From NCBI GenBank assembly GCA_040751775.1, contig JBFMGD010000008.1:15431-79430 (forward strand): a stretch of DNA of 64,000 bases. The letters run 5' to 3'. Shown here in pieces: positions 43,219 through 61,887 of the stretch. Origin of the DNA: Bacillota bacterium. Lineage in GTDB: Bacteria > Bacillota > Dethiobacteria > DTU022. A program made the translations under genes and the position numbers. The notes under the pieces were generated by a model. That model saw only the letters and a program-made list of their open reading frames with translations. It was not told where the DNA came from and did no database searches. Position 1 is the stretch's first letter. The number at the start of each line of letters is the position of its first letter.

Positions 43219-43236
43219 TTGGCATCTCTTTTGCAA
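43219..43236 (+). promoter_or_regulatory. Sigma-54 (-24/-12) promoter: tTGGCATctcttTTGCAa
   Basis: GG at 43221–22 and GC at 43233–34 have the canonical 10-nt spacing. Sits 46 bp upstream of the ATG at 43282 and opposite the activator gene. Confidence 0.7.
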
Positions 43237-43281
43237 TAAAAAGAGGTGTGTCGTAAATTGCATAGGGAGGATGTCTGAGAA

Positions 43282-44505: not shown

Positions 44506-44552
44506 CCCGTTCTCTTCCCGGTATCGGCCATATTGACGAGGAGGGTTGTCTG

Positions 44553-46028: not shown

Positions 46029-46058
46029 CAAATCAATCCATAGCACAAGGGTGAATTT

Positions 46059-46910: not shown

Positions 46911-46942
46911 CTTATAGCTCCGGGCTCCGCTCCACGAAGGAG

Positions 46943-47653: not shown

Positions 47654-47706
47654 TGCTGCCGAATATCAATACATCAGTATCATACCAAAAAGAGGAGGAT
47701 TAACGT

Positions 47707-48609: not shown

Positions 48610-48625
48610 GCAACAGAGAGGCGGT

Positions 48626-49735
48626 ATGGGTATGACCCGTGAAATCAGTGTAGAACTGCAAAGTGTCAGCAAGCTATACGGCACGGATAAGGTGGTCGAT
48701 GAGGTCAGCCTGACCATTGAAAAGGGTGAAATCTTTGTCTTGATCGGCCCTTCCGGTTGTGGGAAAACCACCACTTTAAAGATGATCAATCAGCTGATAC
48801 CGCATACTTCCGGCCAAATACTGGTTAACGGGGTGGATGTGACGAAGCTCGACGCAGTCGAGCTTCGTCGCTCCATTGGCTATGTTATCCAGTATATTGG
48901 TCTGCTGCCTCACCTTACCATCCAGGAGAATATTACCTTTGTGCTCCAGCTGAAAAAATGCTCCAAAAAGGAGCAGAAAGAACGGGCCCACGAGTTGATT
49001 GAGACCGTGGGGCTTCCTGTTTCTTACCTGAAAAGGTACCCCCGGGAACTGAGCGGGGGGCAGCAGCAGCGGGTCGGTGTGGCCCGGGCCTTGGCCGCCA
49101 ACCCGGAGATCCTGCTGATGGATGAGCCTTTTGGCGCGGTAGATCCCCTTACCCGGGAACAGTTGCAAAATGAACTGCTGAGGCTGCAGGAAACCATTCA
49201 GAAGACCATTGTTTTCGTAACCCACGATATGCAGGAAGCTTTTAAAGTGGGCAACCGTATCGGAATACTGCGGCAGGGCAAACTGGTCTGCCTGGGAACG
49301 GCCATGGAGATCGTCAAGTCGGCAGACGAGTTTGTCCAGAACTTTATCGGTCAAGGCGCCCTTTTCGAGGTGTTGGATACTATCCCCATATCCAGGGTTA
49401 TGCAAAACAATGTCCCCTCCATATCGGAAAATGGAATTGTCAAGCGCGACGGTGATCAAATAAACGGATGGGAAAACGTGTTCGTGCTCGATGCTAAGGG
49501 CGCTTGCCTGGGACTCGTACCACTGGCAGAGTTGGGACCCGATGGGGCGGTATCGCCGGAGAAAATTCACCCGCTCCCCCCCGGTTACCCTCCCGGCATC
49601 TCAGTAAAACAAGCGGTGGAGAAGATGCTATGGGGCGGCCGGACATGGCTTCCGGTAGTTTCAGATGAAGGTCATTTCATGGGCATCGTCACGTTTCAAT
49701 CCTGCGCCGGACTGCTGTTTCAGGAGAGGAGGTAG
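48626..49735 (+). CDS. ABC transporter ATP-binding protein with C-terminal tandem CBS domains (OpuCA/OpuAA-like)
   Basis: GPSGCGKTT Walker A, LSGGQQQRV signature, Walker B LLMDEPFGAVD. CBS-type C-terminus. Confidence 0.85.
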   Translation: MGMTREISVELQSVSKLYGTDKVVDEVSLTIEKGEIFVLIGPSGCGKTTTLKMINQLIPHTSGQILVNGVDVTKLDAVELRRSIGYVIQYIGLLPHLTIQENITFVLQLKKCSKKEQKERAHELIETVGLPVSYLKRYPRELSGGQQQRVGVARALAANPEILLMDEPFGAVDPLTREQLQNELLRLQETIQKTIVFVTHDMQEAFKVGNRIGILRQGKLVCLGTAMEIVKSADEFVQNFIGQGALFEVLDTIPISRVMQNNVPSISENGIVKRDGDQINGWENVFVLDAKGACLGLVPLAELGPDGAVSPEKIHPLPPGYPPGISVKQAVEKMLWGGRTWLPVVSDEGHFMGIVTFQSCAGLLFQERR

Positions 49736-49738
49736 GGA

Positions 49739-50389
49739 ATGGCTTTATTTGCTGATGCCTGGGCCTATTTCACCCTCAAAAGAGAGTTCATGTTCCTGGT
49801 TCTTAAAGACCACGTTACACTGGTTCTCTGGGCAACCCTGTTTACTATCCTCATCGGCGTGCCCGTGGGCATCGTCATCGCCCGGACCAAACGATTAAAA
49901 GAGATCGTGCTCGGCTTTGTCGGCATTCTTTACACCATTCCCATCCTCGCCTTTTTCGGATTTCTTATTCCGATCATGGGCATCGGAACCAGGCCGGCCC
50001 TGGTGGCCCTGATCATATACGGTCTTTTGCCGGTTATCCGCAACACATGCGTCGGGATTAACCAGGTCCATCCGATGACCAAGGAAGCAGCCCTGGGTAT
50101 GGGGGCCAGCAGCCTGCAGCTGCTGTTCCGGGTAGAGATTCCGCTGGCCTTTCCGGTCATTTTTGCCGGAATCCGAACAGCCCTGGTGATGAATTTTTCC
50201 CTGGCTACCTATGCCGTTTTTATCGGGGCGGGGGGCATGGGTAGGATTATTATGCAGGGGATCCGCACCTATAACACCGGGATGCTGCTGGCTGGAATAT
50301 TACTGGTGGTCATTACCACGGTCTTATTGGACCGTTCCGTCGGCCGGGTAGACCATGGTATCCAAAAGCGTTTTAGCCTGGGAAAATAA
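49739..50389 (+). CDS. OpuC-type ABC transporter permease 2
   Basis: Paralogous to permease 1 (…LPVIRNTC[TV]GI…V[DH]P…KEAA[KL]GMGA[TS]S[FL]QLL[LF]RVE[LI]PLA[LF]PVI…). Confidence 0.8.
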   Translation: MALFADAWAYFTLKREFMFLVLKDHVTLVLWATLFTILIGVPVGIVIARTKRLKEIVLGFVGILYTIPILAFFGFLIPIMGIGTRPALVALIIYGLLPVIRNTCVGINQVHPMTKEAALGMGASSLQLLFRVEIPLAFPVIFAGIRTALVMNFSLATYAVFIGAGGMGRIIMQGIRTYNTGMLLAGILLVVITTVLLDRSVGRVDHGIQKRFSLGK

Positions 50390-50405
50390 TTGAGGAGGCT
50401 CTACG

Positions 50406-51404
50406 GTGAGCGAATATGTCCTGCACTATGTCGATGCCCACGTGGGAGGGGAGTCTTTGCGCCTCATTCTGCGGGGCCCGCAGCTCAAGGGAAGCACATT
50501 GTTGGAAAAAAGGGACCATATGATTAAAAATTATGATTTTATCCGTACCGCCATTGTGCTGGAGCCCCGGGGACATGACGACATGTACGGGGCGGTGGCG
50601 GTTGACCCCTGTCACCCCGGCGCAGACCTGGGTATTATCTTTATTGACGGCGCGTTTTATAACAACATGTGCGGCCACGGCTCCATTGCCATCGCCACCA
50701 TTGCCGTTGAACTAGGCCTGGTGCCGTCAAAAGAGCCGGTTACCGATGTGGTCTTGGAAACGGGAGCCGGCCTGGTAACCGTTCAGGTAGAGGTGAAAAA
50801 TGGTAGTGCCGGGGAAGCCGCCTTAAAGGGTGTGCCTTCCTTCCTCTACCGTGCCGGCCAGTCCATTCAGCTGCCGGGGCAAACCGTATCGGTGGATATC
50901 GGTTTCGGGGGCAACTTTTTCGTCATCGTCGAAATGGACCACCTGGGCCTTAAGCACTCTAAAGAAAATATCCCGGATTTTATCCGCTACGGGCTGGCCA
51001 TTCGGGAAGCAGTCAACCAAAATATTCCCGTCGCCCACCCTGAAAAACCGTACATTAACTCCGTTGAAGATATCCTCTTTGTTAAAGAACCGGACTTTCC
51101 CGGCGATACCCATAAAAGCCTGGTCGTCCTGGGGCATGCCATGGTGGACCGCTCCCCCTGTGGAACCGGGACCTGCGCCCGCATGGCCATGCTTTATGCC
51201 GGGGGAAAGCTCGGAAAGGGAACCCCTTTTTATCACGAAAGTATCACCGGCGCACTCTTTGAAGGGATGGTATTGGGTGAGACCGCAGTGGGAGATTTCC
51301 CGGCCGTACTCCCCCAAGTGAAAGGGCGGGCTTTTATTACCGGGATCGGAAATCTGTTGATTAACTCCGCCGACCCCCTCAAGTACGGCTTTTCGCTTCG
51401 CTAA
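50406..51404 (+). CDS. Proline racemase / 4-hydroxyproline epimerase family enzyme (both catalytic cysteines present)
   Basis: GTG start after GAGGAGG. NMCGHGS (first Cys) and DRSPCGTGTCARMA (second Cys) are conserved. Confidence 0.8.
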   Translation: MSEYVLHYVDAHVGGESLRLILRGPQLKGSTLLEKRDHMIKNYDFIRTAIVLEPRGHDDMYGAVAVDPCHPGADLGIIFIDGAFYNNMCGHGSIAIATIAVELGLVPSKEPVTDVVLETGAGLVTVQVEVKNGSAGEAALKGVPSFLYRAGQSIQLPGQTVSVDIGFGGNFFVIVEMDHLGLKHSKENIPDFIRYGLAIREAVNQNIPVAHPEKPYINSVEDILFVKEPDFPGDTHKSLVVLGHAMVDRSPCGTGTCARMAMLYAGGKLGKGTPFYHESITGALFEGMVLGETAVGDFPAVLPQVKGRAFITGIGNLLINSADPLKYGFSLR

Positions 51405-51444
51405 ATTAAATTGATGTTTCGCTGAAAGAAGAGGCAGGGTTAAG

Positions 51445-52872
51445 ATGACAACTCGAAAGCTATCACCATTGAAGCTCTTAATGGAAGGAGACCTGACGCG
51501 GATTCATGATGCGTCGGTTAAGGTTCTTGAAGAGACTGGGATGGTGTTTCAAAAACGGGAAGCTTTGGAGATATTTAAAAAACACGGAGCCAAAGTTTCC
51601 GGTAATACAGTCTATATCCCCCGGAAAATGATTGAAAATGCATTGGCCCAGTGCCCCAGAACTGTGAAATGGCGGGCGAGGAATGAAGAGAAATCCATCG
51701 AAGTGGGAAGAGGATTTCATGTTCAGGCGGGCGGAGGATCCGTCTATATCCAGGATGCTGACCATGGCCGCCGGAAGAGTAAGTTGGTGGATTTCACCAA
51801 CATGCAAAAGCTTTACCAGTCCAGCGACGTCATCGATGTAGTTGGGTTCACCCCGGTGGACGCAAGCGACTTAAATCCGGAGTGCAAGCACCTGCATATG
51901 CAACACGCGATCCTGTTTAATACGGATAAGCCGATTCACGGACATGTATGTGGTGGGAAAAAAGCGGGCCAAATGTTGGATATGGCCGAAATCGCCTTTG
52001 GCGAAGAGGGTTTGATGAAGAATCACCACGTGATGGGGCTTTCCATAAATACCATTTCCCCCTTAGGTTTCGGCGAAGAACAAATCGATACCCTGATGGA
52101 ATATGTCAGCCGGAATCAGATTATTATTGCTGCTCCTTTGGCGATCGGCGGAGTAAGCGCGCCTTTGAGTCACGTGGGGATGACGGTCCTGGTGAACGCG
52201 GAAATCCTGGCCATGATCGTTCTGGTGCAGTTGCTCAATCCGGGAAACCCGATCATTACTGGGCCTTCTTCATCATTTGCCGACATGAAGACAGGCGCTT
52301 ACTGCGCGGCTTCACCCGACGGGATGCTGCATCTCATCACCCATATTCAATTAAGCCGGGATCTTTACCGCCTTCCTACCCGCGTGCTCGGCGGTGCCTG
52401 TGATTCCAAGGCAGTTGACGCCCAGGCCGGATTCGAGACCATGCAGAACCTGATGCTGAGCATCTTTGCCGGTTCCGATATGATTGCCCATGCCAGCGGG
52501 GTGTTGGATGGGCTCATGACCATATCCTACGAGAAGATGATTATTGACGAAGAACTGGTTCGCAGGGCAAGATATTTAATCACGCGACCGGTGGAAGTAT
52601 CAGACCGGGAGCTGTCAGTTGATGTAATCGGCGAAGTGAGTCCCGGAGGCAGCTATCTTTTGCATCACAGCGTCTACGAAAAATGCCGGGATCTGTTCCA
52701 GCCGGGGGTATCAGGATGCTCCAATTTCGGGGAGCAGCAGGGCAGCAGTGATATCATGATGCAGGCCAACAAGACCTTCAAGGATCGGTTGGCGAAGGCG
52801 CCGGAAACGCTCCTTGATCCGGTGGTGGACCTGGAATTAAGGTCTTACATGGATCGCTTAATGAACAGTTAA
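51445..52872 (+). CDS. MttB-superfamily (non-pyrrolysine) methyltransferase homologue 2
   Basis: …LTRIHDASVKVLEETGMVFQKREALEIFKKHGAKVSGNTVYIPRKMIENAL… is the MttB-family N-terminus. Uninterrupted frame. Confidence 0.8.
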   Translation: MTTRKLSPLKLLMEGDLTRIHDASVKVLEETGMVFQKREALEIFKKHGAKVSGNTVYIPRKMIENALAQCPRTVKWRARNEEKSIEVGRGFHVQAGGGSVYIQDADHGRRKSKLVDFTNMQKLYQSSDVIDVVGFTPVDASDLNPECKHLHMQHAILFNTDKPIHGHVCGGKKAGQMLDMAEIAFGEEGLMKNHHVMGLSINTISPLGFGEEQIDTLMEYVSRNQIIIAAPLAIGGVSAPLSHVGMTVLVNAEILAMIVLVQLLNPGNPIITGPSSSFADMKTGAYCAASPDGMLHLITHIQLSRDLYRLPTRVLGGACDSKAVDAQAGFETMQNLMLSIFAGSDMIAHASGVLDGLMTISYEKMIIDEELVRRARYLITRPVEVSDRELSVDVIGEVSPGGSYLLHHSVYEKCRDLFQPGVSGCSNFGEQQGSSDIMMQANKTFKDRLAKAPETLLDPVVDLELRSYMDRLMNS

Positions 52873-52883
52873 CCAGCCGGATT

Positions 52884-54317
52884 TTACAGCACATTCTCCG
52901 GATTCCAAATGCCAATGGAATCATAGGTGTCTTTTAGTTTTTGCAACTCCCTGATATACTCGCCGGGGGCCATCTTCAGGAACATCGTTTTTTTCAATTT
53001 CCCTATGCCGTGCTGCGTTTCAATTTTCCCTTCTTTGCCTGCGAACTCTTCCGCCCATTGCTCCAGCAAATACCGGCCTTTTTCATATTGAAGATAATTT
53101 ACGGGCAGCAGATTTACATGGAGACGATTTTCGCCGATGTGGCCGAAAATTGATGCTTTTAGCCCTGCCGCCGCCAGGTCCGTCTCGTATTTGGTAATCG
53201 CCGCCGGCAAGTCAATATTCTCCAGGCCTATGTACGATTCCAACTTGGTTAGGCGCGGCTCCTCCTGTCTTACTCTTTCCGTAAATAGATTGGCGCACTC
53301 GGCTGCCGCATGGCGAAAAGCTCTCAGCTTTTCAACCTCTGCCTCCCCGGCGACCGCCCAGGCCCGGTCCGGGTCGCTGTTTGACCTCAGGGCCAGGTCC
53401 ATTAACATTTCAGCTATCTCTTCAACGGCCTCCTCCTGCCGGTTGTGAAATTCAAGGTAAATTGATGCGGTAACCGTCGAATCGATCTCCGGGATATGTT
53501 TTAAACTTGTAAACCCTGCTTTTCTCTCCCGGATCAGCTCTAGGGTTGCTCCGTCGATATATTCCGCCGCGGCAAGGCCTGCGCTCTCCAGCTGCAAATC
53601 CGCTGCGACTAGGTAATCAGCAAAGGCAAACAGCGCTTCTTTCTCTTCAAAAAAAAAGGTGAAGCCCCATATTTCCTTGGGCTTCGGCTGCAGCTTTAAG
53701 GTAAGCTCCGTGAAGATGCCGAACAACCCCTCGCCGCCCAGGAACAGGTCCAGTAAATCTATATGGCCCCCAGGGAAAGGGATCAGGGTCTTGCCCCGCT
53801 GTAGTTCCAGCACGGCCCCGCTGGAGAGGGCTATTTTAGCCCCTGCAACATACTCCCTGGCTTCCCCGTACCGGCGGGAGCAGGGTCCCCTGGCGTTGCA
53901 CGAGGCGACGCCTCCCGCGGTCGCGGAACTTTCAGTGGGGTCGGGCGGCCAGCACAGCTCCTCTTCATATCTCAGCATTTTCAACTCTCGATTCAGTTCC
54001 CGCAGGGTAATGCCCGGTTCAACTTTAAGCAGGGTCTCCCCCCGGCCGGTGCTGATGAAGCGTTTGACCCGGTTCATTTTCGACAGGTTGAGGATATGGC
54101 CTCCCGGTGGAACCGCCCCTCCGGCAATACCGGTTTTGCCACCCTGGATGGTAATGGGGACATTTTTCTCCCTCATCCGGGCTACAATTTCTGCGATCTC
54201 CGGCTCAGACTGGGGAAAAGATATGCTTGCGGCTGTTCCGGCCAGCTTTGATTCGTCGGTTAAATAGTCGCGGTATTTTTCTGCCAACGGGAAGATTAAC
54301 GATCCCGCCATAAGCAT
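52884..54317 (-). CDS. FAD-binding PCMH-type oxidase (GlcD/D-lactate-dehydrogenase-like) 2
   Basis: FAD_binding_4 region (…PITIQGGKTGIAGGAVPPGGHILNLSKMNRV…). Adjacent to etfA. Confidence 0.75.
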   Translation of the reverse strand: MLMAGSLIFPLAEKYRDYLTDESKLAGTAASISFPQSEPEIAEIVARMREKNVPITIQGGKTGIAGGAVPPGGHILNLSKMNRVKRFISTGRGETLLKVEPGITLRELNRELKMLRYEEELCWPPDPTESSATAGGVASCNARGPCSRRYGEAREYVAGAKIALSSGAVLELQRGKTLIPFPGGHIDLLDLFLGGEGLFGIFTELTLKLQPKPKEIWGFTFFFEEKEALFAFADYLVAADLQLESAGLAAAEYIDGATLELIRERKAGFTSLKHIPEIDSTVTASIYLEFHNRQEEAVEEIAEMLMDLALRSNSDPDRAWAVAGEAEVEKLRAFRHAAAECANLFTERVRQEEPRLTKLESYIGLENIDLPAAITKYETDLAAAGLKASIFGHIGENRLHVNLLPVNYLQYEKGRYLLEQWAEEFAGKEGKIETQHGIGKLKKTMFLKMAPGEYIRELQKLKDTYDSIGIWNPENVL

Positions 54318-54331
54318 CTCCCCTCCTTTAA

Positions 54332-55297
54332 TCAGCGCTTTTTATCCCGGATAAGCAGCTTTACCAACTCATCCAGGACCGGTTCATAATCATCAATAAC
54401 AGCCACATCCGCAGCCTGCACCAGGGGGGCCCCTTCATCGGTATTGATGGCGATGATCCGTTCGCTTTGCTCGATGCCGGCAAAAAAAGCGGCGGCTCCT
54501 GATACACCGGCGGCGATACACAACCGGGGTTTGGTGATGGCACCGGATACCCCGACCAGCCGGTGCAGCGGAGTCCAGGCGCTCATGGCCACCGGCCGGC
54601 TTACTCCCAGCTCTGCACCGATTACCCCGGCGACCTCTTTGAGACGGCCGGCTTTTTCCTTGCTTTTTACGCCCCTGCCGGCCACCAGGATAAATTGAGC
54701 CTGCTCCAGGCCGCCGCCGGTTTCCGCTTCTGTAAATTGATAATCTTCGCCGCATCCCTCTTTTGCAAAGCCGGCCATATCCACTTCCGATATCTCTTGA
54801 ATGTTTTTTCTGGTGGAAGATTGAACAGCGGCTGAGCCTTTGGCAATGGAGAGGCAAAAAGGTTTTTTACGAAGCAGAAACTTGCCCTGCAGGTAATTGG
54901 CGTAAACCGCCTTGTAACAGATGAACTGATTTTCCACCAACTCCAGCTTATTGACAGCCACCAAGGAACTTCCCCCCATCCGGTAGGCGAACCGGACCGC
55001 CATTTCGCTGCCGAAAAAGTTGCCGGGGAATAGATATAAATCTGCAACCCGGTCCCGCTCCAGCGTTGTCAAGATCTCCAGGGCGCTTTCCGGGTAATGC
55101 CTTTTAACCTTGACCATCTTGAGAGAGGAGGTCGGCGAGTGGGCGATTAAATCTTGTTTCCGGCTATCGTTGCTGTAAAAAATGATGCTGTTGCCCGCCG
55201 TAGGCCCCTCCGGGCAAGCGTCCAGGAAGCCCCGGACCTCTCCTGCCTGGGAGTGAAAGTCCCCTGAACAGCCGTTTAAAACCGCCGTACATTTCAT
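54332..55297 (-). CDS. etfA: Electron-transfer flavoprotein alpha subunit
   Basis: C-terminal …CIAAGVSGAAAFFAGIEQSERIIAINTDEGAPLVQAADVAVIDD…. Start placed at MKCTAV, giving an ATGA overlap with etfB. Confidence 0.8.
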   Translation of the reverse strand: MKCTAVLNGCSGDFHSQAGEVRGFLDACPEGPTAGNSIIFYSNDSRKQDLIAHSPTSSLKMVKVKRHYPESALEILTTLERDRVADLYLFPGNFFGSEMAVRFAYRMGGSSLVAVNKLELVENQFICYKAVYANYLQGKFLLRKKPFCLSIAKGSAAVQSSTRKNIQEISEVDMAGFAKEGCGEDYQFTEAETGGGLEQAQFILVAGRGVKSKEKAGRLKEVAGVIGAELGVSRPVAMSAWTPLHRLVGVSGAITKPRLCIAAGVSGAAAFFAGIEQSERIIAINTDEGAPLVQAADVAVIDDYEPVLDELVKLLIRDKKR

Positions 55298-56106
55298 AAC
55301 TGCTCCAACCACTCTTTCAGATACGCATCGTAGAGGGCCCTGGCTTTTTCAGCCGGGGTGGCCCCCTGGACAATTACCCCTTCCCTGTTGCGGTCGATTA
55401 GCGCCAACCCCTGCAGTTCACAACCGGTATCGAAGCAATTAAAAATACCCTGGAGGCCAAACTGCTCCAGGTCCATAACCTCGATCTCTTTTTTTCCGCA
55501 GGCGTATTTTTCCTTGAGGGTCGGCACTCTCAGGTAAGCGTTCGGCACATTCCCCACGGCCAGGACGCAGGGGGTTCTGACTGTCTGTTGCACCAGGCCG
55601 CCGTCCACCATGGCTGTAACCTTGAGACGGCTTGCTTCGCCGGGCTCCACTCTGGTGACCTGGGTAATACACGGCCACTTGAGCATTTCGGCCGCCAGCA
55701 GGGGTGTCTTGGCGTTGTCGCCCACGCCGCTTTGCCGGCCCATGATCAGTAAATCCTGTTTGCCGTAAAGTTCCACGTAACGGCATATTACCGAGGCTAC
55801 AGCCTCCGGTGAAAACCTGGCCTCAACACTGTTTTCAATTCTTACCGCCTTGGCAAATTGCAAGGCGTATAAAGTTTTTAAATAGATATCCGCCTTCTCG
55901 TCGCCGATGGTTAGCGCCGTGAGGTTAACGCTCTGACCGGCGCTTTCGGAAAACCGCAAAGCCATTTCAAGAGCACTTTCATCATAGGCATTGAGAATTG
56001 TTTTCGCATAGCCGGTCTCCACCCGTAAGAGACTGTCTATAAACCAGTCGCTTCCGGCGAGCTGATCCAGGTCGGGGACCACTTTGAAACATACCAGTAT
56101 ATCCAT
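55294..56106 (-). CDS. etfB: Electron-transfer flavoprotein beta subunit
   Basis: MDILVCFKVVPDLDQL… is an EtfB N-terminus. Confidence 0.8.
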   Translation of the reverse strand: MDILVCFKVVPDLDQLAGSDWFIDSLLRVETGYAKTILNAYDESALEMALRFSESAGQSVNLTALTIGDEKADIYLKTLYALQFAKAVRIENSVEARFSPEAVASVICRYVELYGKQDLLIMGRQSGVGDNAKTPLLAAEMLKWPCITQVTRVEPGEASRLKVTAMVDGGLVQQTVRTPCVLAVGNVPNAYLRVPTLKEKYACGKKEIEVMDLEQFGLQGIFNCFDTGCELQGLALIDRNREGVIVQGATPAEKARALYDAYLKEWLEQL

Positions 56107-56108
56107 GA

Positions 56109-57551
56109 TTACCGCCTCGGAAAGATCGTTCCCCTGTTCATGATCCCGTTGGGATCAAAAGCTTTTTTCAAGGTTTCCACGATGTAGTACGAAGAGCCGT
56201 ACTCGTCCTTGATCCAGGGGGTCCGGTGTTTGCCGACTCCATGGTGGTGGCACATGGAGCCCCCGGCCTTGATGGTTTCTTCCACGATAATTTTCTTGAT
56301 GGGCAGGTGATACTTGGTAATCTCTTCTTCCGGCTTGCAGTCGACGACATTGTAGTAGTGGACAAAGTACATGTTAGTGCCGTTCAGATAGCTGTGGGAG
56401 GAATGGCCGCCGATCAGGGTGATATCGGGTATTTCATTGCGGATCCTTTCAACGCAAATCTCATAGATGTCATTGATGATCCCCCAGTTGGCCGATATCT
56501 CGGTGGTGTTGCCGATATTTTTCGTTTCCACGATTTCAGCTCTTTCCTCGGCAACCTTGGAAACATCCCAGTTCAAATTGTTGAACCATACCTGGATATA
56601 TTTCGGGTCAACTTTTTGACATTCTTCGGATTGGGCCACGATCTCTTCAATGGCGCGGCCGGTGGCATCGGCGAGGGGTTTGGGGCCCTCGGCCATAAAG
56701 ATGAGCACGCATTTGTTCCCGGCGAAATGGGAGAAATGGTAGGCTCCGTCTTCCGGATCGTAAAGGCGGGCCACGGAAGGCCTGTAGCCGTTGGCCATTA
56801 CTTCCCGCAGGAGTTCAAAACCTGTTTTCATCCTGTCCAGGGTGTAACCCAGGAGAATGATATTTTCCGGCATAAATTTAAAGATTTTTACCGTCACCTC
56901 GGTGATATAGCAGATCGCCCCTTCGTTGCCGATGATGACGTGCCTGATATCGGGACCCGCCGCTCTGCGGGGTACATTCTTGATTCTCGTAATTTCGCCG
57001 TTGGGGAAGACCGCTTCCAGACCCACCACCATCTCTTCGATTCCGCCGTAGAGGGTTGAAAACTGGCCGATACTCCTGGTGGCAACCAGGCCGCCCATTT
57101 GCGCCAGGGGTTTGGACTGGGGGGAATGGCCCGTGGTATATCCCTGTTCCCGCAACCGGTCCTCCAGAACCTGAAGGGGTGTGCCGCACTGGCAGGTGGC
57201 CTGCATGTTATAGGTGTCTATCTGGATAATTTGATTCATTCTAGAACCATCAACGACGAGTGAATTTTCCACGGCGGTCTCCAGGCCGCCTTCCGTTGCC
57301 GAATGACCGGTACGCGGTACGACGTTGATCCGGTGCTCGTTGGCAAATTTTAAAACAGCCGACACCTCAGCCGTACTGTGTACATAAACCACCGCTGCCG
57401 GTATTGGCTGGGTGTAGACGCCGTGCAGCTCCTCAAACCTTCTGAACCGGTCCACGCTGCTTTCTTTTAAAACCTGCTCGTCGGTAATGACCTGATCCTC
57501 TCCCAGGATTTCCATCATCTTCTCCACGATTTGCTCCCTTGCCATCGGCAT
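56109..57551 (-). CDS. FAD-binding PCMH-type oxidase (GlcD-like) 1
   Basis: …NVVPRTGHSATEGGLETAVENSLVVDGSRMNQI… FAD_binding_4. C-terminal HHHGVGKHR oxidase C-terminal motif. Confidence 0.75.
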   Translation of the reverse strand: MPMAREQIVEKMMEILGEDQVITDEQVLKESSVDRFRRFEELHGVYTQPIPAAVVYVHSTAEVSAVLKFANEHRINVVPRTGHSATEGGLETAVENSLVVDGSRMNQIIQIDTYNMQATCQCGTPLQVLEDRLREQGYTTGHSPQSKPLAQMGGLVATRSIGQFSTLYGGIEEMVVGLEAVFPNGEITRIKNVPRRAAGPDIRHVIIGNEGAICYITEVTVKIFKFMPENIILLGYTLDRMKTGFELLREVMANGYRPSVARLYDPEDGAYHFSHFAGNKCVLIFMAEGPKPLADATGRAIEEIVAQSEECQKVDPKYIQVWFNNLNWDVSKVAEERAEIVETKNIGNTTEISANWGIINDIYEICVERIRNEIPDITLIGGHSSHSYLNGTNMYFVHYYNVVDCKPEEEITKYHLPIKKIIVEETIKAGGSMCHHHGVGKHRTPWIKDEYGSSYYIVETLKKAFDPNGIMNRGTIFPRR

Positions 57552-57639
57552 AACGCTAAGCTCCTTTGCTTTTATTATTTCAGGGCCGCTCGGCTCCAGC
57601 GCACTCCAGGCGGCCGGCCGCCTTTTAGACTATATTAGA

Positions 57640-59079
57640 TTATCGAAATATGGGGTATGATTTTTTCAAGATCTCGTCCGTGTAAACAGTGATATCTTTA
57701 TAGACTTCGTCATTCATTCTGCGGTATAAAGCGGTGTTGGCTTTATCGGGCAGGAATCTGTCCCTTATCTTAACCATTTTTTCTATGGCCGTTACGTAAC
57801 CGTCGTGTATGCCGGTGGCCACCGCGGCACAGATGGCCGCGCCCAGGCTGGCGGAACCGTTAACCGCATTTCTGGTCGTGGGGATGCCGAAAACATCGGC
57901 AAATATCTGCATGAACAGGTCGCCGTTGGATCCTCCCCCGGAAATAATAAGTTCTTTAAGTTTGATACCCAGTTCAGCGCACATGGCGTCGGCATGGTTT
58001 TTCATAGTCAAAGCGATCCCCTCCAGGATGGAGCGGAACATGTGGCCCCCGGTGTGGCGTACGTCAAAACCGATCATCAAGCCCTTCTTGTAGGGCGTTT
58101 CCGGGCGGGCTAACCAGTCCAGCACGGTCATCAAGCCGTCGCTGCCGGGAGGAACCTTTTCCCCTTCGTTGTTTAAATAGACTTCCGCGGGGATGCCCAG
58201 TGCCCGGGCTTTCAGCGCAACCTCATCACCCAGAAGATCTTTCATCCAGCTTATTGTCCACATTCCCCTGCGGATGCCGGTACTCTCGTATAAATAGTGG
58301 TGCGGCATGGATGCAAGGTTGGTAAAGAAATGTGCTGCCTCCTTCACGACTTTATGGCCGTACACCATGGATGTAATATAGGTCCCCAGGGAAACCAGGG
58401 CGGTGTTACCGGGGAGCAGGCCGGCACCCAGAGCTTCCACCGCTTTGTCGTTGGCCGTGGCGATGACGGGGATGCCGGCGGGAATGCCCGTGGCCTCCGC
58501 CGCTTTTTCCGTGACATATCCGGCGATGGTTCCGGGCAGCAGCAGATTGAAGAGCATCTCCCGGGGAATGTTGTACTGCTTGAAAATTTCCGGGTTATCG
58601 CTCCATTGCCATGTATCCTTGTCAATGGGCCATTGACCTTCGTAGTTGGCGACCGTGTCGCTGAACTCACCGGTAAGACGGTGGGTCATATAACCGGTGG
58701 TGGTGGTCACATATTTAACCTGAGGATCGAGGTGTTCATAAGGCCTGGAGAGCCTTAAATCCATCCAGCTGATAACCGGAGATGCCAGGGAGCCGTCTTC
58801 TTTTAATAGAACCCTGCAGCAGCGAATAGTGCACAGCCCTAAACCGATGATATCTTTAACGTTTCCGGTAAAACGCCGCATAGCCTGCTTGCTCGCCGCT
58901 GTAAGAGAGTCCCACAGGTCATCATCCGGATGCTCCACCACTCCCGGCCCGGGTAAACTCATCGCTCGTAAATCCTGTCTTCCTTCACAGATCACGTTCC
59001 CTTCAAGGTCGAAGATGACGACCTTTGAGCTCTGCGAGCCGCCGTCAATGCCGATAATATATTTTTTTGCCATTTTCAA
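57640..59079 (-). CDS. FGGY-family carbohydrate kinase (glycerol-kinase-like)
   Basis: MKMAKKYIIGIDGGSQSSKVVIFD…VVEHPDDDLW is a GlpK/XylB-type N-terminus. FGGY C-terminal domain. Confidence 0.8.
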   Translation of the reverse strand: MKMAKKYIIGIDGGSQSSKVVIFDLEGNVICEGRQDLRAMSLPGPGVVEHPDDDLWDSLTAASKQAMRRFTGNVKDIIGLGLCTIRCCRVLLKEDGSLASPVISWMDLRLSRPYEHLDPQVKYVTTTTGYMTHRLTGEFSDTVANYEGQWPIDKDTWQWSDNPEIFKQYNIPREMLFNLLLPGTIAGYVTEKAAEATGIPAGIPVIATANDKAVEALGAGLLPGNTALVSLGTYITSMVYGHKVVKEAAHFFTNLASMPHHYLYESTGIRRGMWTISWMKDLLGDEVALKARALGIPAEVYLNNEGEKVPPGSDGLMTVLDWLARPETPYKKGLMIGFDVRHTGGHMFRSILEGIALTMKNHADAMCAELGIKLKELIISGGGSNGDLFMQIFADVFGIPTTRNAVNGSASLGAAICAAVATGIHDGYVTAIEKMVKIRDRFLPDKANTALYRRMNDEVYKDITVYTDEILKKSYPIFR

Positions 59080-59111
59080 CTTCCCGCCCTTCTGCAGCTT
59101 TGGCTCTGCGG

Positions 59112-59894
59112 CTACCTGACCAGGTAGCCGCCGTCCACCACCAGGATATGACCATTGACGTAATCTGAAGCCCTACTGGCCAGGAATACAATGGCCCCCA
59201 TCAGGTCCGCGGGATCACCCCAGCGATTGGCCGGAACATGGTCCATCACTCTTTTATTTGCCTCGGGGCTGTTCCTGGTTTTGACCGTCAGCTCGGTAGC
59301 GTAATATCCCGGGGCAAGACCATTTACCTGAATATTAAATTGGGCCAGCTCGTCGCAGTAGGCCTTAGTGAAACCGGCCAGCCCGTGTTTCGTCGCCGCA
59401 TATGCCGGAGACCACTGGCCCCCCAGGAACGAAAACAGTGAGCAGATGTTGATGATCTTTCCGCTTCTTTGGGGGATCATTTTTTTTGCCGCTGCATGGC
59501 TTAGTTCGAAAGGTGCAGTAAGGTTAACGGCAAGCATCGGATCCCATGCGCTTCGACCGAATTCAAGGACATTTTGTTCATTAATACAGACACCGGCGCT
59601 GTTCACCAGAATATCAACAGAGCCAAGAGTATCAACACAGGCGTCAATGACTTTTAGGGCTGCTCCTTTTTCCGTGATATCTGTTTTCATAAATGCAAAC
59701 TTCACCCCTTCACTTTCGATCAGGGTTTTGGTGGCGCCGTCATCTTCGGCGAGGCTTGGAATAAACAGGTTCGCCCCGGCCTTGGCCAAGGCCAAGGCAA
59801 AAGCCTGTCCCAGCCCTGTGTTTCCACCGGTAATGATGGCGTTCTTGCCCTTTAATGAAAAGTGGTCCATGGAGAAGTCCTTAATACCCATCAT
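59112..59894 (-). CDS. Short-chain dehydrogenase/reductase (KduD/gluconate-5-DH-like)
   Basis: KGKNAIITGGNTGLG (TGxxxGxG), active-site YAATK and PG motif. Start placed at MMGIKDF after the GGAGGG RBS rather than at the tool's 59939. Confidence 0.8.
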   Translation of the reverse strand: MMGIKDFSMDHFSLKGKNAIITGGNTGLGQAFALALAKAGANLFIPSLAEDDGATKTLIESEGVKFAFMKTDITEKGAALKVIDACVDTLGSVDILVNSAGVCINEQNVLEFGRSAWDPMLAVNLTAPFELSHAAAKKMIPQRSGKIINICSLFSFLGGQWSPAYAATKHGLAGFTKAYCDELAQFNIQVNGLAPGYYATELTVKTRNSPEANKRVMDHVPANRWGDPADLMGAIVFLASRASDYVNGHILVVDGGYLVR

Positions 59895-59947
59895 CAATCC
59901 CTCCGCTTTAATCGGTTTCGAAATAGACATGGAGAGCATGCAATTTC

Positions 59948-59997
59948 AAAAAAAAGAGAAAAAAGCACACTTCCATACGGAAATTACTTTTCTCTCT
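59948..59997 (-). terminator. Leader terminator-like hairpin (candidate GlpP-responsive antitermination site)
   Basis: On the minus-strand transcript: AAGAGAGAAAAG–(21-nt loop containing a UUCC/GGAA mini-hairpin)–CUUUUUUCUCU then U8. That is an 11-bp stem with one G·U, ending ~45 nt before the SDR start. Confidence 0.55.
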
Positions 59998-60084
59998 TCA
60001 CTAGTAATTTAATTAAAGTATAAAATTTATTTCAATAAATGTCAATGAGCTGGTGTTTAGGTTTTTCCAGGTAACTACCGAACT

Positions 60085-60648
60085 TTACAAGCCCCATACT
60101 TCGGGGTTAGTTGAACAAATAGCCGTTGCGCCGGCTTTTAGGGCGGCCACGACGTCCTCCTTGCAGCAGATCAAGCCGCCTGAAATTATCGGTATCTTCG
60201 TTTTCTCCATAACCCAGGAAATTAGTTTAGGCCAACCCGGTAAGATTTCTATATAATCGGGTTGAGAGAGCTCAATTTGCTTATCGAGATTTCCGAAAGA
60301 AAATGAGTCAATAACGAACAACCTGTGAACGGTAATCAAACCCTGAGATTTGGCTGCTTTAAGCATAGCTGCTTTGGCGCTCAAAATACCGTCTGCCCGG
60401 GTATTATCTTTCATGTATTGAATAACAATCTCTTTGTTGGCAAAGCCTTCGAGCAGATCAACATTAATAAAGGCCATCTTTCCGCTGTCTTTAATTTTTT
60501 GGGCTATTTCAATGATATTTAAAACATTGCCGTATAGAATAAAGACGATTTTGCAATCAGAGGCCAGGACAGCCTTTAAACCCTCGTCGTCTTTGATAGC
60601 CGGTATGATGGGATAATCTTCCAATATGGTATCCAGCTTTTTATTCAT
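60085..60648 (-). CDS. glpP: GlpP-family glycerol-3-phosphate-responsive antiterminator
   Basis: PIIPAIKDD…VHRLFVIDS…ILPGW…IPIISGGLI…EDVVAALKAGATAICSTN aligns with B. subtilis GlpP. Start at MNKK (60648) follows GGAGG; the upstream ATG at 60675 would translate the RBS itself. Confidence 0.8.
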   Translation of the reverse strand: MNKKLDTILEDYPIIPAIKDDEGLKAVLASDCKIVFILYGNVLNIIEIAQKIKDSGKMAFINVDLLEGFANKEIVIQYMKDNTRADGILSAKAAMLKAAKSQGLITVHRLFVIDSFSFGNLDKQIELSQPDYIEILPGWPKLISWVMEKTKIPIISGGLICCKEDVVAALKAGATAICSTNPEVWGL

Positions 60649-61266
60649 TTTTCCTCCGTAAAAAAAGTGCTTCACTAATCATTTTATAATATATCTTCAT
60701 AGATGCCCACTCATTTCTTTACTACCATTCATGCCGCTTTGCTAGATTAACCTGTTTTTACAGAGCTTTTACCTGACTTCAATTTAGAATTAACACTCCT
60801 TTGATATAGTATATATTAGTTTAGTAATGCTGCATTTCCGGGTACATTTTGGCAAAGTAATAGCCGCTGCTTCCGTAAGCGGGAAAATAGGAAGCGATGA
60901 TCACTTTTTCCGCGATTACCTAATGCCCGTCTTTGGTTATTACAGCGCATGGGTTGCCTTCATGAAAATCTACCGCCCTGGTTCCATGCGCTTTCTTTGA
61001 CATTGCCATCTCCGGAATAGGGTAGGGCATACGCGAGGTAGTAATATATTGGGGATTTACCGTATGTTTTATTGTAACGCCACAGCTTCTCTACTTAACC
61101 CGGGTTTTTTTAAAATAATATTGACATTCATGTCATAATCTTTATATAATATATAAAAACCATTCATAAGATTATTTAAATTAAGTTTTCTCCTTATTAC
61201 AACAGTTATTTGGTCCGAATAAGCAGCCGTACATGGATTTCGGGTAGAACAGTACGGGTCCGGGAG

Positions 61267-61887
61267 CTATTCGGTAGTTTGGTATACACCGCCGGTGTAA
61301 AGCTCAAACAAGTTCTCGCTGATTTGTTCGATATCGTTTTCACGCTCCCAGACGATATCCCATAAAAATTCCCGGATCATATAGACAATACCCTTGGCGA
61401 TGATTTTTGTCTGAAGCGGCCTGGCCAGGTGGTGTTCCTGGGAATAATGCAGATCTTCGATCGTCCGCTCAATGAAGCGGTTAAAAATGTCGTCCCAGTA
61501 GCTGCGGGTCACCTTTGAATGGCCCAGGGCATCCCATATAATTTGAAATACATGGCGGTTTTCCCTGGCCAGTTTCAGCACGCTGTAAATCTGGTTGTAT
61601 ACTATTTCACGCACATCCGCATAACGGGAAGGACTGTAGTTGATGTAAACAACTTTTCCGATCTTTGTCATTACGTCGTCCACCAGGTTTTGCAGCAGCT
61701 CTTCTTTGTCTTTGAAATGGATATAGACTGTCCCGTAGCCTATTCCGGCCCGGCTGCTGATATCCTTAAAGGTGGTTCCGGTGTACCCTTTTTCCAGAAA
61801 AACCGACTTGGCCGACTCAAGAATAGCTTTTCTGGTGCAGGCTGAACGTTTTTTACGGCCGTCGATTTTTGTTTCATGTTTTTCCAT
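61267..61887 (-). CDS. TetR/AcrR-family transcriptional regulator
   Basis: N-terminal HTH (…AKSVFLEKGYTGTTFKDISSRAGIGYGTVYIHF…). Confidence 0.85.
   Translation of the reverse strand: MEKHETKIDGRKKRSACTRKAILESAKSVFLEKGYTGTTFKDISSRAGIGYGTVYIHFKDKEELLQNLVDDVMTKIGKVVYINYSPSRYADVREIVYNQIYSVLKLARENRHVFQIIWDALGHSKVTRSYWDDIFNRFIERTIEDLHYSQEHHLARPLQTKIIAKGIVYMIREFLWDIVWERENDIEQISENLFELYTGGVYQTTE

What the first reader, a model, noticed from the sequence alone, without database searches (positions are those of the whole stretch)
52884..59939. GlpP-led operon encoding SDR, FGGY kinase, two GlcD-like FAD oxidases and EtfBA: candidate Etf-coupled polyol or glycerol-phosphate oxidation
The gene order on the minus strand is glpP – leader – SDR – FGGY kinase – FAD oxidase – etfB – etfA – FAD oxidase. 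GlcD-like oxidase plus EtfAB is the architecture of electron-confurcating lactate dehydrogenase (LctBCD) in anaerobic Firmicutes. Here it is doubled, and combined with a glycerol-kinase-like enzyme, an SDR and a glycerol-3-phosphate-responsive antiterminator. This suggests an anaerobic route in which a phosphorylated polyol or hydroxy-acid (possibly G3P itself) is oxidised with Etf as the electron acceptor, instead of GlpD/GlpABC. Such a module is not among the characterised Etf systems.
Basis: inference. Interest (0 to 1): 0.7.

Follow-up and report, generated by a model that had tools for sequence, protein, structure and literature searches.

The report
Firmicute version of E. coli's ygc operon
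The genes are real and form one riboregulated operon. It is the anaerobe's version of the widespread, still uncharacterised E. coli "ygc" cluster, and its key flavoenzyme resembles ether-lipid synthase rather than lactate dehydrogenase, which gives testable ideas about what this unknown pathway degrades.

Summary
On the minus strand lie a GlpP-family antiterminator, a promoter plus leader terminator, and then SDR, FGGY kinase, FAD enzyme Ox1, EtfB, EtfA and FAD enzyme Ox2.

- **Orthology.** The module matches the E. coli K-12 ygc cluster, whose function is unknown: YgcW 72%, YgcU 69%, YgcE 55%, YgcP 52%, YgcR 34%, YgcQ 31% identity.
- **Conserved core.** Across 80 loci from many phyla the core is SDR + YgcU-like enzyme + kinase. 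Etf is an accessory.
- **Ox1** is alkyl-DHAP-synthase-like. Its counterparts of Arg419, Tyr578 and the HHH loop are invariant in 84/84 orthologs.
- **Ox2** is LctD-like.
- **The window's only Etf** lacks the bifurcating FAD motif and the NAD motif. Relatives carry a second, bifurcating-type Etf after Ox2. The window does not.
- **The leader** is a conserved terminator/antiterminator RNA with 84 copies in 49 loci, including E. coli. It shows three-way covariation and is absent from Rfam.
- **Transporters** under the same control are BCCT, OpuA-type or MFS.

Most likely this is a catabolic operon for a glycerol- or polyol-bearing, betaine-like solute. The proposed steps are oxidation to a ketone, phosphorylation, then flavin-dependent attack on a substituted-DHAP intermediate. 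Electrons would pass to a dedicated non-bifurcating Etf. The substrate is unknown.

The parts
60085..60648 (-). GlpP/YgcP-family RNA-binding antiterminator. ATG start shown; the longest ORF starts at GTG 60675.
   Evidence: PF04309 covers the full length, E=5e-59. 52% identical to E. coli YgcP and 71% to the L086 homolog.
60017..60045 (-). Sigma70-like promoter of the operon, lying between the glpP stop codon and the leader.
   Evidence: TTGACA-17-TATACT, 11 of 12 matches. The same promoter and spacing are conserved in L005.
59948..60009 (-). Leader RNA. 5' box AATTACT at 60003-60009; its partner AGTAATT at 59982-59988, inside the terminator's 5' arm; terminator hairpin at 59953-59999; U-run at 59948-59955.
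   Evidence: Terminator dG -22.6 kcal/mol, z -6.8; 5' hairpin alone -2.7. Conserved in 84 instances in 49 loci with three-way covariation. No Rfam match.
59112..59894 (-). SDR, ortholog of YgcW and KduD/gluconate-5-dehydrogenase-like. Probable start is ATG 59894; the longest ORF runs to 59939.
   Evidence: 72% identical to YgcW. NCBIfam KduD 328 bits against a cut-off of 369. Closest solved structures are KduD 4z9y and Ga5DH. GGAGGG lies 3-4 nt before ATG 59894 (sequence).
57640..59079 (-). FGGY-family kinase, ortholog of YgcE.
   Evidence: 54.5% identical to YgcE over 477 aa. All NCBIfam equivalogs (XylB, LsrK, GlpK) are far below cut-off. Closest solved relative is LsrK 5ya0 at 135 bits.
56109..57551 (-). 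Ox1: VAO-fold flavoenzyme, ortholog of YgcU and alkyl-DHAP-synthase-like.
   Evidence: 69% identical to YgcU. Best PDB hits are ADPS 2uuu (7e-45) and 4bby; LctD scores only 1e-22. R262, Y395 and H435-437 align with ADPS Arg419, Tyr578 and His615-617 and are invariant in 84/84 orthologs.
55294..56106 (-). EtfB' (YgcR-type small Etf subunit), lacking the bifurcating-type motifs.
   Evidence: PF01012. 34% identical to YgcR. It has VGDNAKTPL and SVEAR in place of DGDTAQVGP and RxFxG.
54332..55297 (-). EtfA' (YgcQ-type large Etf subunit). Divergent domain I and no ferredoxin domain. The longest ORF starts at GTG 55312.
   Evidence: Only the ETF_alpha domain is detected. 31% identical to YgcQ. The FAD-domain alignment to LctC and others covers residues 176-320. 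53% identical to L086 EtfA1 from 55297 onward.
52884..54317 (-). Ox2: LctD/D-lactate-dehydrogenase-like flavoenzyme and last gene of the operon. Its stop codon lies 11 nt from the stop of a convergent MttB gene.
   Evidence: Best PDB hits are LctD 7qh2_C (2e-32, full length) and then mitochondrial D-LDH. The counterparts of His377, His384 and His423 are kept; Glu422 is Gln. 100% identical to an NCBI 'Bacillota bacterium' MAG protein, with a large family in anaerobes.

Best explanation
This is the strictly anaerobic Bacillota version of the conserved but functionally unassigned ygc catabolic cluster of E. coli.

**Regulation**
- The operon (SDR, kinase, Ox1, EtfB', EtfA', Ox2) is transcribed from its own promoter.
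- It is held off by a strong leader terminator.
- The upstream YgcP/GlpP-family protein, presumably loaded with a phosphorylated pathway intermediate, is inferred to stabilise a weak 5' hairpin. That hairpin shares seven bases with the terminator's 5' arm, so read-through follows.

**Proposed chemistry (inferred, not shown)**
1. A solute carrying a terminal glycerol-like 1,2-diol is imported. In relatives this is done by BCCT, OpuA-type or MFS carriers placed behind the same leader.
2. The KduD-like SDR oxidises the secondary alcohol to a hydroxy-ketone.
3. The FGGY kinase phosphorylates the terminal CH2OH, giving a 1-substituted dihydroxyacetone phosphate.
4. Ox1 keeps every catalytic residue of alkyl-DHAP synthase. 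It is proposed to attack the activated C1 through flavin chemistry, releasing the substituent and a C3 phosphate that enters central metabolism. No aldolase or isomerase is conserved in these clusters.

**Proposed electron flow**
- Electrons left on Ox1's flavin go to the dedicated one-FAD-type (non-bifurcating) Etf'.
- The outlet differs by lineage: YgcN/YgcO (FixC/X-like) to quinone in Enterobacterales; the LctD-like Ox2 in anaerobes, alone as here or together with a second, bifurcating Etf in relatives.
For: **Shown**
- Orthology of six proteins to the ygc cluster.
- The SDR + YgcU-like + FGGY triad recurs in essentially all of 80 loci across Proteobacteria, Bacillota, Actinomycetota, Chloroflexota, Planctomycetota and Desulfobacterota. 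Etf is present in only a subset.
- Ox1 groups with ADPS, with invariant Arg, Tyr and HHH.
- The SDR's nearest relatives are KduD and gluconate 5-dehydrogenase. By established knowledge, these oxidise the penultimate CHOH next to a CH2OH.
- Kinase placement.
- EtfB' lacks the b-FAD and NAD motifs, whereas the second EtfB of relatives has them.
- In the loci sampled, YgcNO and Ox2 never occur together.
- Promoter, terminator and an alternative helix with covariation are present.
- The leader also precedes a BCCT gene (L082), an MFS gene (L084, E. coli yqcE) and an OpuA-type ABC operon (L067).
- The L067 binding protein is ProX/OpuC-like. It keeps 3 of 4 cage tyrosines and the 3 carboxylate ligands of A. 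fulgidus ProX (the residue roles are recalled from memory).
- BCCT or OpuA genes lie in or next to the cluster in many independent lineages.

**Literature**
- ygcU was still only 'a FAD-binding oxidoreductase' in 2026 (PMC13012123).
- yqcE-ygcE is CRP-activated (PMC8085971).
Against: - There are no experimental data for any step, and the substrate is not identified.
- The ADPS-type residues could equally serve an ordinary dehydrogenase.
- The cofactor content of Etf' cannot be read from sequence. Its motif, VGDNAKTPL, matches neither bifurcating nor canonical Etfs.
- The role of Ox2 as an electron outlet rests only on its complementary distribution with YgcNO. Ox2 keeps most LctD catalytic residues, so it may have a substrate of its own.
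- This window has no transporter inside the operon. The nearby OpuA system sits in a convergent MttB cluster that may be an independent pathway.
- E. coli uses MFS carriers, not betaine-type ones.
- Many loci, including Bacillaceae, Actinomycetota and several Serratia and relatives, have no Etf in the cluster. That fits either O2 or a housekeeping Etf as acceptor, or a redox-neutral reaction.
Confidence: 0.5

Rival explanations
1. A glycerol-kinase-like enzyme makes G3P or another polyol phosphate. This is oxidised by GlcD-like oxidases, with EtfAB acting as an electron-confurcating acceptor (NAD+/ferredoxin), as in LctBCD.
For: - A GlpP-family regulator and an FGGY kinase are present.
- Ox2 is LctD-like over its full length.
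- Close relatives do carry an Ox2-EtfB2-EtfA2 module with the DGDTAQV and RxFxG motifs and an EtfA ferredoxin domain.
Against: - The window has only one Etf pair. It lacks both bifurcation motifs and the Fd domain.
- Ox1 is ADPS-like, not LctD/GlcD-like.
- The kinase is far below the GlpK cut-off, 117 against 498 bits.
- The SDR is the most conserved member (72% to E. coli) and has no role in plain G3P oxidation.
- The triad also occurs in Bacillaceae, whose model species use the canonical GlpK/GlpD route (general knowledge; not checked in these genomes).
Confidence: 0.12
2. An ordinary neutral sugar-alcohol pathway of the tetritol or pentitol type. The SDR makes a ketose, the kinase makes a ketose phosphate, and Ox1 is a ketose-phosphate dehydrogenase that feeds Etf. 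The betaine-type transporters would be neighbours by coincidence.
For: - The SDR resembles the GolD/DthD and gluconate 5-dehydrogenase families.
- The kinase's best models are XylB and LsrK.
- E. coli and 12 other loci use MFS carriers.
- CRP activation is typical of sugar operons.
Against: - No isomerase, aldolase or epimerase is conserved in more than 35 diverse loci.
- BCCT or OpuA genes recur in several unrelated lineages and sit behind the same leader in L082 and L067.
- The ADPS-type catalytic set is invariant.
Confidence: 0.2
3. Ox1 catalyses a redox-neutral, ADPS-type substitution or hydrolysis. Etf', with YgcNO or Ox2, serves only to re-oxidise an accidentally reduced flavin when O2 is absent.
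For: - The triad works without any Etf gene in most aerobic lineages.
- ADPS itself is redox-neutral and needs oxidised FAD (established knowledge).
- Etf is found mainly in anaerobes and facultative anaerobes.
Against: - Two to four conserved genes, tightly coupled to Ox1 (2-nt gap here), is a heavy investment for repair.
- E. coli pairs the Etf with a full FixC/X-like quinone reductase.
Confidence: 0.1
4. The gene string is a chance juxtaposition of unrelated units: a sugar kinase/SDR unit next to a lactate-utilisation Etf unit.
For: Two different oxidase subfamilies are present, and there is an 88-nt gap between the kinase and Ox1.
Against: - The same set recurs from E. coli to Fusobacteriota.
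- No internal terminator rises above chance.
Confidence: 0.02

Closest known systems
E. coli K-12 ygc cluster (ygcN-ygcO-ygcP / ygcQ-ygcR-ygcS-ygcU-ygcW / yqcE-ygcE; b2766-b2776), function unknown
   Same: - Orthologous SDR (72%), YgcU-type flavoenzyme (69%), FGGY kinase (55%), GlpP-family protein (52%), EtfB (34%) and EtfA (31%).
- The same leader RNA stands before ygcW and yqcE.
   Different: - The window is a single operon.
- It has no YgcN/YgcO (FixC/X-like) and no MFS carriers in the operon.
- It carries an LctD-like second flavoenzyme (Ox2) that E. coli lacks.
Alkyl-dihydroxyacetonephosphate synthase (ADPS/AGPS; PDB 2uuu, 4bby)
   Same: Best solved relative of Ox1. Arg419, Tyr578 and the His615-617 loop are all conserved.
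   Different: - Ox1 is 480 aa and lacks the N-terminal extension.
- It sits in a catabolic operon with a kinase, an SDR and a dedicated Etf.
- Whether it forms a flavin-N5 adduct is untested.
Electron-confurcating lactate dehydrogenase Ldh-EtfAB (LctBCD) of Acetobacterium woodii (PDB 7qh2)
   Same: Ox2 aligns over its full length with LctD and keeps the counterparts of His377, His384 and His423. Relatives place a bifurcating-type EtfBA directly after Ox2.
   Different: - In the window the only Etf lacks DGDTAQVGP, RxFxG and the Fd domain.
- Ox2 has Gln in place of the metal ligand Glu422.
- No lactate permease is present.
Bacillus subtilis GlpP / glpD-leader antitermination
   Same: Same protein family (PF04309), and a leader terminator stands directly before the regulated operon.
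   Different: - The target operon is not glpD/glpFK.
- The leader motif defined here is conserved in Enterobacterales, Bacillota and Fusobacteriota and is not in Rfam.
- The ligand is unknown.
E. coli FixABCX and YdiQRST (Etf plus FixC/X-like partners)
   Same: In Enterobacterales, YgcQR-YgcNO has the same four-gene logic.
   Different: The window replaces the FixC/X-like pair by Ox2. The YgcR-type EtfB is very divergent: it is about equally distant from all solved Etfs, at 34-54 bits.

Membership tests
ygc-type cluster (E. coli YgcW/U/E/P/R/Q orthologous set) | Each protein is the best match of its E. coli counterpart at high identity over the full length. | tested here: met
   BLASTP 72/69/54.5/52/34/31% identity, E from 1e-36 to 0.
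ygc-type cluster (E. coli YgcW/U/E/P/R/Q orthologous set) | Conserved co-location of SDR + YgcU-like enzyme + FGGY kinase. | tested here: met
   Seen in essentially all of 80 loci; the exceptions are mostly loci cut short by a contig end.
ygc-type cluster (E. coli YgcW/U/E/P/R/Q orthologous set) | Shared leader RNA before the operon. | tested here: met
   The window leader at 59948-60009 matches the motif found in 49 loci, including E. coli K-12.
Electron-bifurcating Etf (LctBC/EtfAB type) | b-FAD recognition motif DGDTAQVGP in EtfB (PMC9232219). | tested here: not met
   The window has VGDNAKTPL. The second EtfB of L082-L084 has DGDTAQVSG.
Electron-bifurcating Etf (LctBC/EtfAB type) | NAD-binding motif RxFxG in EtfB. 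| tested here: not met
   The aligned segment is SVEAR.
Electron-bifurcating Etf (LctBC/EtfAB type) | EtfA arginine contacting N5 of the b-FAD (Arg205 in LctC); an N-terminal ferredoxin domain in the Lct and Car types. | tested here: inconclusive
   There is no Fd domain: EtfA is 326 aa with no CxxCxxCxxxCP. Domain I is too divergent to align.
LctD / D-2-hydroxyacid dehydrogenase clade (for Ox2) | Metal ligands His377, His384 and Glu422, catalytic His423 and Arg328 (PMC9232219). | tested here: inconclusive
   Both His ligands and His423 are kept. Glu422 is Gln. The arginine is probably R335. The family is mixed at these positions.
Alkyl-DHAP synthase (for Ox1) | Catalytic Arg419, Tyr578 and His615-617 loop (roles recalled from the ADPS literature). 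| tested here: met
   R262, Y395 and H435-437 align with them and are invariant in 84/84 orthologs.
Alkyl-DHAP synthase (for Ox1) | N-terminal domain and long-chain alcohol tunnel; acyl/alkyl exchange activity. | tested here: not met
   The alignment starts at ADPS residue 137 or 203, and Ox1 is only 480 aa. Activity is not testable here.
GlpP antiterminator | Full-length PF04309 domain and a terminator-containing leader before the target operon. | tested here: met
GlpP antiterminator | Glycerol-3-phosphate as the activating ligand. | not testable with these tools
   The target genes are not glp genes, so the ligand may be a pathway-specific phosphate ester.
Glycerol kinase GlpK / xylulokinase XylB | Score above the NCBIfam equivalog cut-off. 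| tested here: not met
   XylB 174 against 380, LsrK 156 against 528, GlpK 117 against 498 bits.
KduD | Score above the NCBIfam equivalog cut-off. | tested here: not met
   328 against 369 bits: close, but below.

The most novel reading that the evidence does not exclude
The ygc triad is a new kind of catabolic route.
- A 1-substituted glycerol is converted by SDR and kinase into a 1-substituted DHAP. One candidate is the ether-linked head group left after deacylation of betaine lipids such as DGTS; another glyceryl-betaine is also possible.
- An alkyl-DHAP-synthase-like flavoenzyme then cleaves the C1-substituent bond by ADPS-type flavin chemistry run in the degradative direction.
- A private Etf carries off the electrons.
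- The whole system is switched by a YgcP-bound leader RNA that is conserved from E. coli to Clostridia.
Probability: 0.2. Interest if true: 0.85.

Novelty: new variant of a known kind. Interest (0 to 1): 0.62.

Why it matters
- **An open question in E. coli.** No function for the ten-gene ygc block of E. coli K-12 turned up in the literature held here or in NCBIfam (June 2026).
- **Where to focus.** The window shows that the same module is spread across at least six phyla. That separates the essential core (SDR, kinase, ADPS-like flavoenzyme) from the interchangeable electron outlets: quinone-linked YgcNO, LctD-like Ox2, and Ox2 plus a bifurcating Etf.
- **Concrete handles for experiments:**
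  - an invariant ADPS catalytic set, which suggests carbanion/flavin-N5 chemistry on a DHAP-like ketone;
  - betaine-type uptake systems in the same regulon, which narrow the search for the substrate;
  - a short leader RNA not found in Rfam 15, with clear terminator/antiterminator covariation, which can serve directly as a reporter for the inducer.
- **Possible payoff.** If the ether or substituent-cleavage idea is right, it would be the first catabolic use of ADPS chemistry.

Tried and rejected
- **Exact-sequence look-ups.** Look-ups of the window's Ox1 and of P0001 found no contig on record, so the source genome could not be inspected beyond the window.
- **Literature searches.**
  - Searches on ygcU, ygcE, ygcW, ygcP and related names returned mostly noise (YGCY splicing motifs, journal codes) and no functional study.
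  - Combined searches for FGGY with ADPS, and for FGGY with BCCT, Etf and antiterminator, found nothing.
  - A search on homoserine betaine and DGTS catabolism found no bacterial pathway.
  - The Etf classification paper (J Bacteriol 2017) is not held. The motif definitions were therefore taken from the Ldh-EtfAB structure paper.
- **Transporter specificity.** NCBIfam typing of the BCCT and OpuAC proteins gave no head-group specificity; all scored well below the equivalog cut-offs.
- **Leader alignment.** Re-aligning trimmed leaders with MAFFT put the 5' box in two registers. I therefore did not build a covariance model and counted covariation with an explicit pattern instead.
- **Readings considered and rejected.**
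  - The TetR gene (61267-61887) as part of the unit: it is not conserved next to the cluster in L005 or L086.
  - A hidden second Etf pair in the window: tblastn found none.
  - An internal terminator in the 88-nt kinase-Ox1 gap: there is no U-run and the fold is no better than shuffles.

Full report
**1. What is in the sequence**

Pfam and NCBIfam confirm every family:
- G3P_antiterm (E=5e-59);
- an SDR whose best model is KduD (328 bits, cut-off 369);
- an FGGY kinase;
- a FAD_binding_4/FAD-oxidase_C protein (Ox1);
- EtfB;
- an EtfA in which only the C-terminal FAD domain is recognisable;
- a second FAD_binding_4/FAD-oxidase_C protein (Ox2).

The genes are packed, with gaps of 32, 88, 2, overlap and 14 nt. 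Terminator-like hits inside the string are no more frequent than in shuffled sequence (15 against 13.3). The one longer gap has no U-run and folds no better than shuffles.

Between the glpP stop and the SDR lies an 11/12 sigma70-type promoter (60045..60017). It is followed by a 21-bp hairpin and a U8 run (dG -22.6 kcal/mol, z -6.8). So glpP is a separate unit, and the six enzyme genes form a promoter-leader-operon.

Two start codons need correction:
- The SDR most likely begins at ATG 59894, behind GGAGGG.
- EtfA most likely begins at ATG 55297.

The organism is an uncultured Bacillota bacterium: Ox2 is 100% identical to an NCBI MAG protein.

**2. It is the ygc cluster**

I recalled that E. 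coli K-12 has an unexplained block with the same families, so I fetched it and compared the proteins.

| Window protein | E. coli protein | Identity |
|---|---|---|
| SDR | YgcW | 72% |
| Ox1 | YgcU | 69% |
| Kinase | YgcE | 54.5% |
| GlpP | YgcP | 52% |
| EtfB | YgcR | 34% |
| EtfA | YgcQ | 31% |

Ox2 has no E. coli counterpart. Instead, E. coli has YgcN/YgcO (FixC/FixX-like) and two MFS carriers.

No held paper assigns a function:
- In March 2026, ygcU was still just 'an additional FAD-binding oxidoreductase' (PMC13012123).
- yqcE-ygcE is listed as CRP-activated (PMC8085971).
- NCBIfam (June 2026) has no specific model for any member.

**3. Core and accessories**

A genome scan with YgcU/Ox1 returned 80 loci at 58-78% identity. 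They come from Enterobacterales, Bacillaceae, Actinomycetota, Desulfobacterota, Chloroflexota, Planctomycetota, Oscillospiraceae and others. I annotated them against the window and E. coli proteins.
- SDR + Ox1 + kinase are essentially always together.
- Etf' (YgcR/Q type) is present only in a subset:
  - Enterobacterales, always with YgcN/O;
  - a few anaerobes or microaerophiles.
- Bacillaceae, Actinomycetota and several Serratia, Erwinia and Pantoea have the triad without any Etf. In Bacillaceae it often comes with an RpiR/SIS regulator instead of GlpP.
- No aldolase, isomerase or dehydratase is conserved anywhere.

**4. The two flavoenzymes are different things**

Ox1:
- Its best solved relatives are alkyl-DHAP synthases (2uuu E=7e-45, 4bby E=1e-41). 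LctD reaches only E=1e-22.
- In the alignment, Ox1 R262, Y395 and H435-H437 fall on ADPS Arg419, Tyr578 and the His615-617 loop. The roles of those residues I take from memory of the ADPS literature.
- These five residues are invariant in all 84 orthologs collected.

Ox2:
- Its best hits are LctD of the A. woodii confurcating lactate dehydrogenase (E=2e-32, full length) and mitochondrial D-LDH.
- Using the active-site list in PMC9232219, Ox2 keeps the counterparts of His377, His384 and His423. It probably keeps the arginine too, but has Gln for the metal ligand Glu422.
- The Ox2 family is large in anaerobes and is mixed at these positions.

**5. The Etf**

PMC9232219 states that bifurcating EtfB proteins carry DGDTAQVGP (b-FAD) and RxFxG (NAD), and that non-bifurcating ones lack the first.
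- The window EtfB has VGDNAKTPL and SVEAR at these places. E. coli YgcR and the first EtfB of three other clusters look the same.
- EtfA has no ferredoxin domain.

I looked up five Ox2 homologs: Anaeromicrobium, a C. hylemonae-type contig, Sebaldella and two metagenome or MAG contigs. All sit in the same cluster, and all carry a second Etf pair directly after Ox2.
- That second EtfB, checked in three of the clusters, has GKQTTDGDTAQVSG and R(S/A)F(S/A)G.
- In L086 its EtfA has an N-terminal 2x CxxCxxCxxxCP domain.

So relatives really do contain an LctBCD-like unit (Ox2-EtfB2-EtfA2), next to a separate Ox1-Etf' unit. The window lacks the second pair:
- tblastn finds none in the 64 kb.
- The Ox2 stop codon is 11 nt from a convergent MttB gene.
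- Desulfobacula (L051) and a Caldilineaceae MAG (L048) show the same 'orphan Ox2' layout.

YgcN/O and Ox2 never occur together in the loci sampled. Five of the Ox2 loci were found through Ox2 itself, so that count is biased.

**6. The leader is a conserved RNA element**

The window leader is nearly identical in the closest relatives L005 and L086. A pattern search then found it across phyla.
- The motif is (A/G)TTAC(T/C) - 5 to 16 nt - GAGAAA(A/G)GTAA(C/T) - loop - (C/T)TTTCTC - U-run.
- There are 84 instances in 49 loci.
- Both E. coli K-12 divergent promoters carry it, before yqcE and before ygcW. Neither copy is annotated in the RefSeq record.

On a 28-sequence alignment:
- The terminator helix is 94.8% paired, against 55-64% when slid, with six pairs showing double changes.
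- An alternative helix between the 5' box and seven bases of the terminator's 5' arm is 97.4% paired, against 14-57% when slid.

In the larger set the covariation is as follows.

| Positions compared | Main state | Alternative state | Exceptions |
|---|---|---|---|
| Box position 2 / its stem partner | G-C in 56 | A-T in 28 | none |
| Last box base / 5'-arm partner / 3'-arm partner | T-A-T in 72 | C-G-C in 10 | 2 |

One base covarying with two alternative partners is what a terminator/antiterminator switch predicts.

The 5' hairpin alone is weak (-2.7 kcal/mol). The default state is therefore termination, and a protein is needed to hold the alternative fold. That fits a GlpP-type mechanism, which is established for B. 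subtilis glpD and inferred here. Rfam 15 has no match.

**7. What the regulon imports**

The leader stands before:
- a BCCT gene that heads the operon in Anaeromicrobium (L082);
- an MFS gene in Sebaldella (L084) and E. coli;
- an OpuA-type ABC operon in Salsuginibacillus (L067).

BCCT or OpuA-type genes lie in or beside the cluster in Schaalia, Propionibacterium, three Bacillaceae, Oscillospiraceae, the C. hylemonae-type contig, L086 and this window.

The L067 binding protein is closest to A. fulgidus ProX and B. subtilis OpuCC. It keeps Lys13, Tyr63, Thr66, Tyr111, Arg149 and Tyr214 of ProX; Tyr190 is His. The residue roles are from memory.

This points to a cationic or zwitterionic, betaine-like head group. 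It does not prove it, and E. coli's carriers are MFS.

**8. Mechanism**

What follows is inference from the anatomy.
- KduD and gluconate 5-dehydrogenase are the SDR's nearest relatives. They oxidise the CHOH next to a terminal CH2OH.
- FGGY kinases of the LsrK, XylB and GlpK kind phosphorylate such a terminal CH2OH.
- Together they would turn X-CH2-CHOH-CH2OH into X-CH2-CO-CH2-OP, a 1-substituted DHAP. That is the substrate type of ADPS.
- ADPS chemistry needs exactly such a ketone to acidify C1. This would explain why the SDR is the most conserved partner of Ox1.
- Ox1 could either swap X for water, giving DHAP without net redox. Or it could leave the flavin reduced and give a 2-oxoaldehyde phosphate. 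The dedicated Etf' in anaerobes and in E. coli argues for net electron flow there. Aerobes without Etf could use O2 or a housekeeping Etf.
- The lack of any downstream aldolase or isomerase fits a C3 product that enters glycolysis directly.
- Ox2's role is the weakest point. It may be the electron outlet for Etf' in organisms without quinones, reducing a 2-oxo acid. Or it may be a second substrate dehydrogenase.

**9. Verdict**

- It is wrong about the nature of the first oxidase, about bifurcation in this window, and probably about G3P.
- It also missed that the module is the E. coli ygc cluster.
- I rate it a new variant of a known but functionally unassigned kind, with moderate to high interest. 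The comparison yields direct experimental handles on an open y-ome problem, together with a leader RNA that is not in Rfam 15.

Noticed in passing
window 59948-60009 (-); L001 (E. coli K-12) 10507-10567 (+) and about 10300-10362 (-): A short leader RNA with a 5' box, a terminator and three-way covariation is conserved from E. coli to Bacillota and Fusobacteriota: 84 copies in 49 loci. It has no Rfam match and is not annotated in the K-12 RefSeq record.
   Followed up: yes
window 41572-52872: A convergent neighbouring cluster holds a sigma54 activator, an octopine-DH-like gene, two MttB-family methyltransferases, a PanB-like gene, an OpuA-type ABC transporter with an OpuAC binding protein, and a proline-racemase-like gene. 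A similar set (2 MttB, racemase, BCCT, octopine-DH-like) flanks the cluster in L086. It may process the released quaternary amine, or it may be an independent betaine pathway.
   Followed up: partly
L082 10453-12251; L083 10491-12253; L084 10442-12278; L085 11441-13317; L086 11470-13451: Relatives carry a second Etf pair after Ox2. It has the bifurcating DGDTAQV and RxFxG motifs (checked in L082-L084), and in L086 the EtfA has a 2x[4Fe-4S]-type N-terminus. The window, L048 and L051 lack this pair.
   Followed up: yes
window 60680-61260: A low-GC spacer (0.39-0.41, against about 0.53 in the operon) lies between the TetR gene and glpP. It contains short ORF fragments such as ...AVITKDGH* and VIIASYFPAYGSSGYYFAKMYPEMQHY*, which look like remains of a FAD-dependent oxidoreductase gene.
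   Followed up: no
L083 14948-15832 and 18385-19212; L084 12296-13081: SurE-family and ARMT1/DUF89-family phosphatase genes are embedded in the clusters of gut and Fusobacteriota relatives. This hints that a phosphorylated product, such as a released head group or a side product, is dephosphorylated.
   Followed up: no
Ox2 family, P0001-P0120 (window Ox2 residues 335, 435, 436): The Ox2 family splits into two active-site types: Arg...Glu-His (the majority, LctD-like) and Leu...Ser-Tyr. The window protein has the rarer Arg...Gln-His.
   Followed up: partly
window 59894-59939 and 55297-55312: The longest-ORF starts of the SDR and EtfA are probably too far upstream. The U-run of the leader terminator ends only 8 nt before ATG 59939, whereas ATG 59894 has a GGAGGG Shine-Dalgarno sequence.
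   Followed up: yes
L012 3076-3171: In Limnobaculum the terminator part of the leader is flanked by A-runs and U-runs on both sides and lacks the 5' box on either strand. It may act as a bidirectional terminator between the divergent genes.
   Followed up: no
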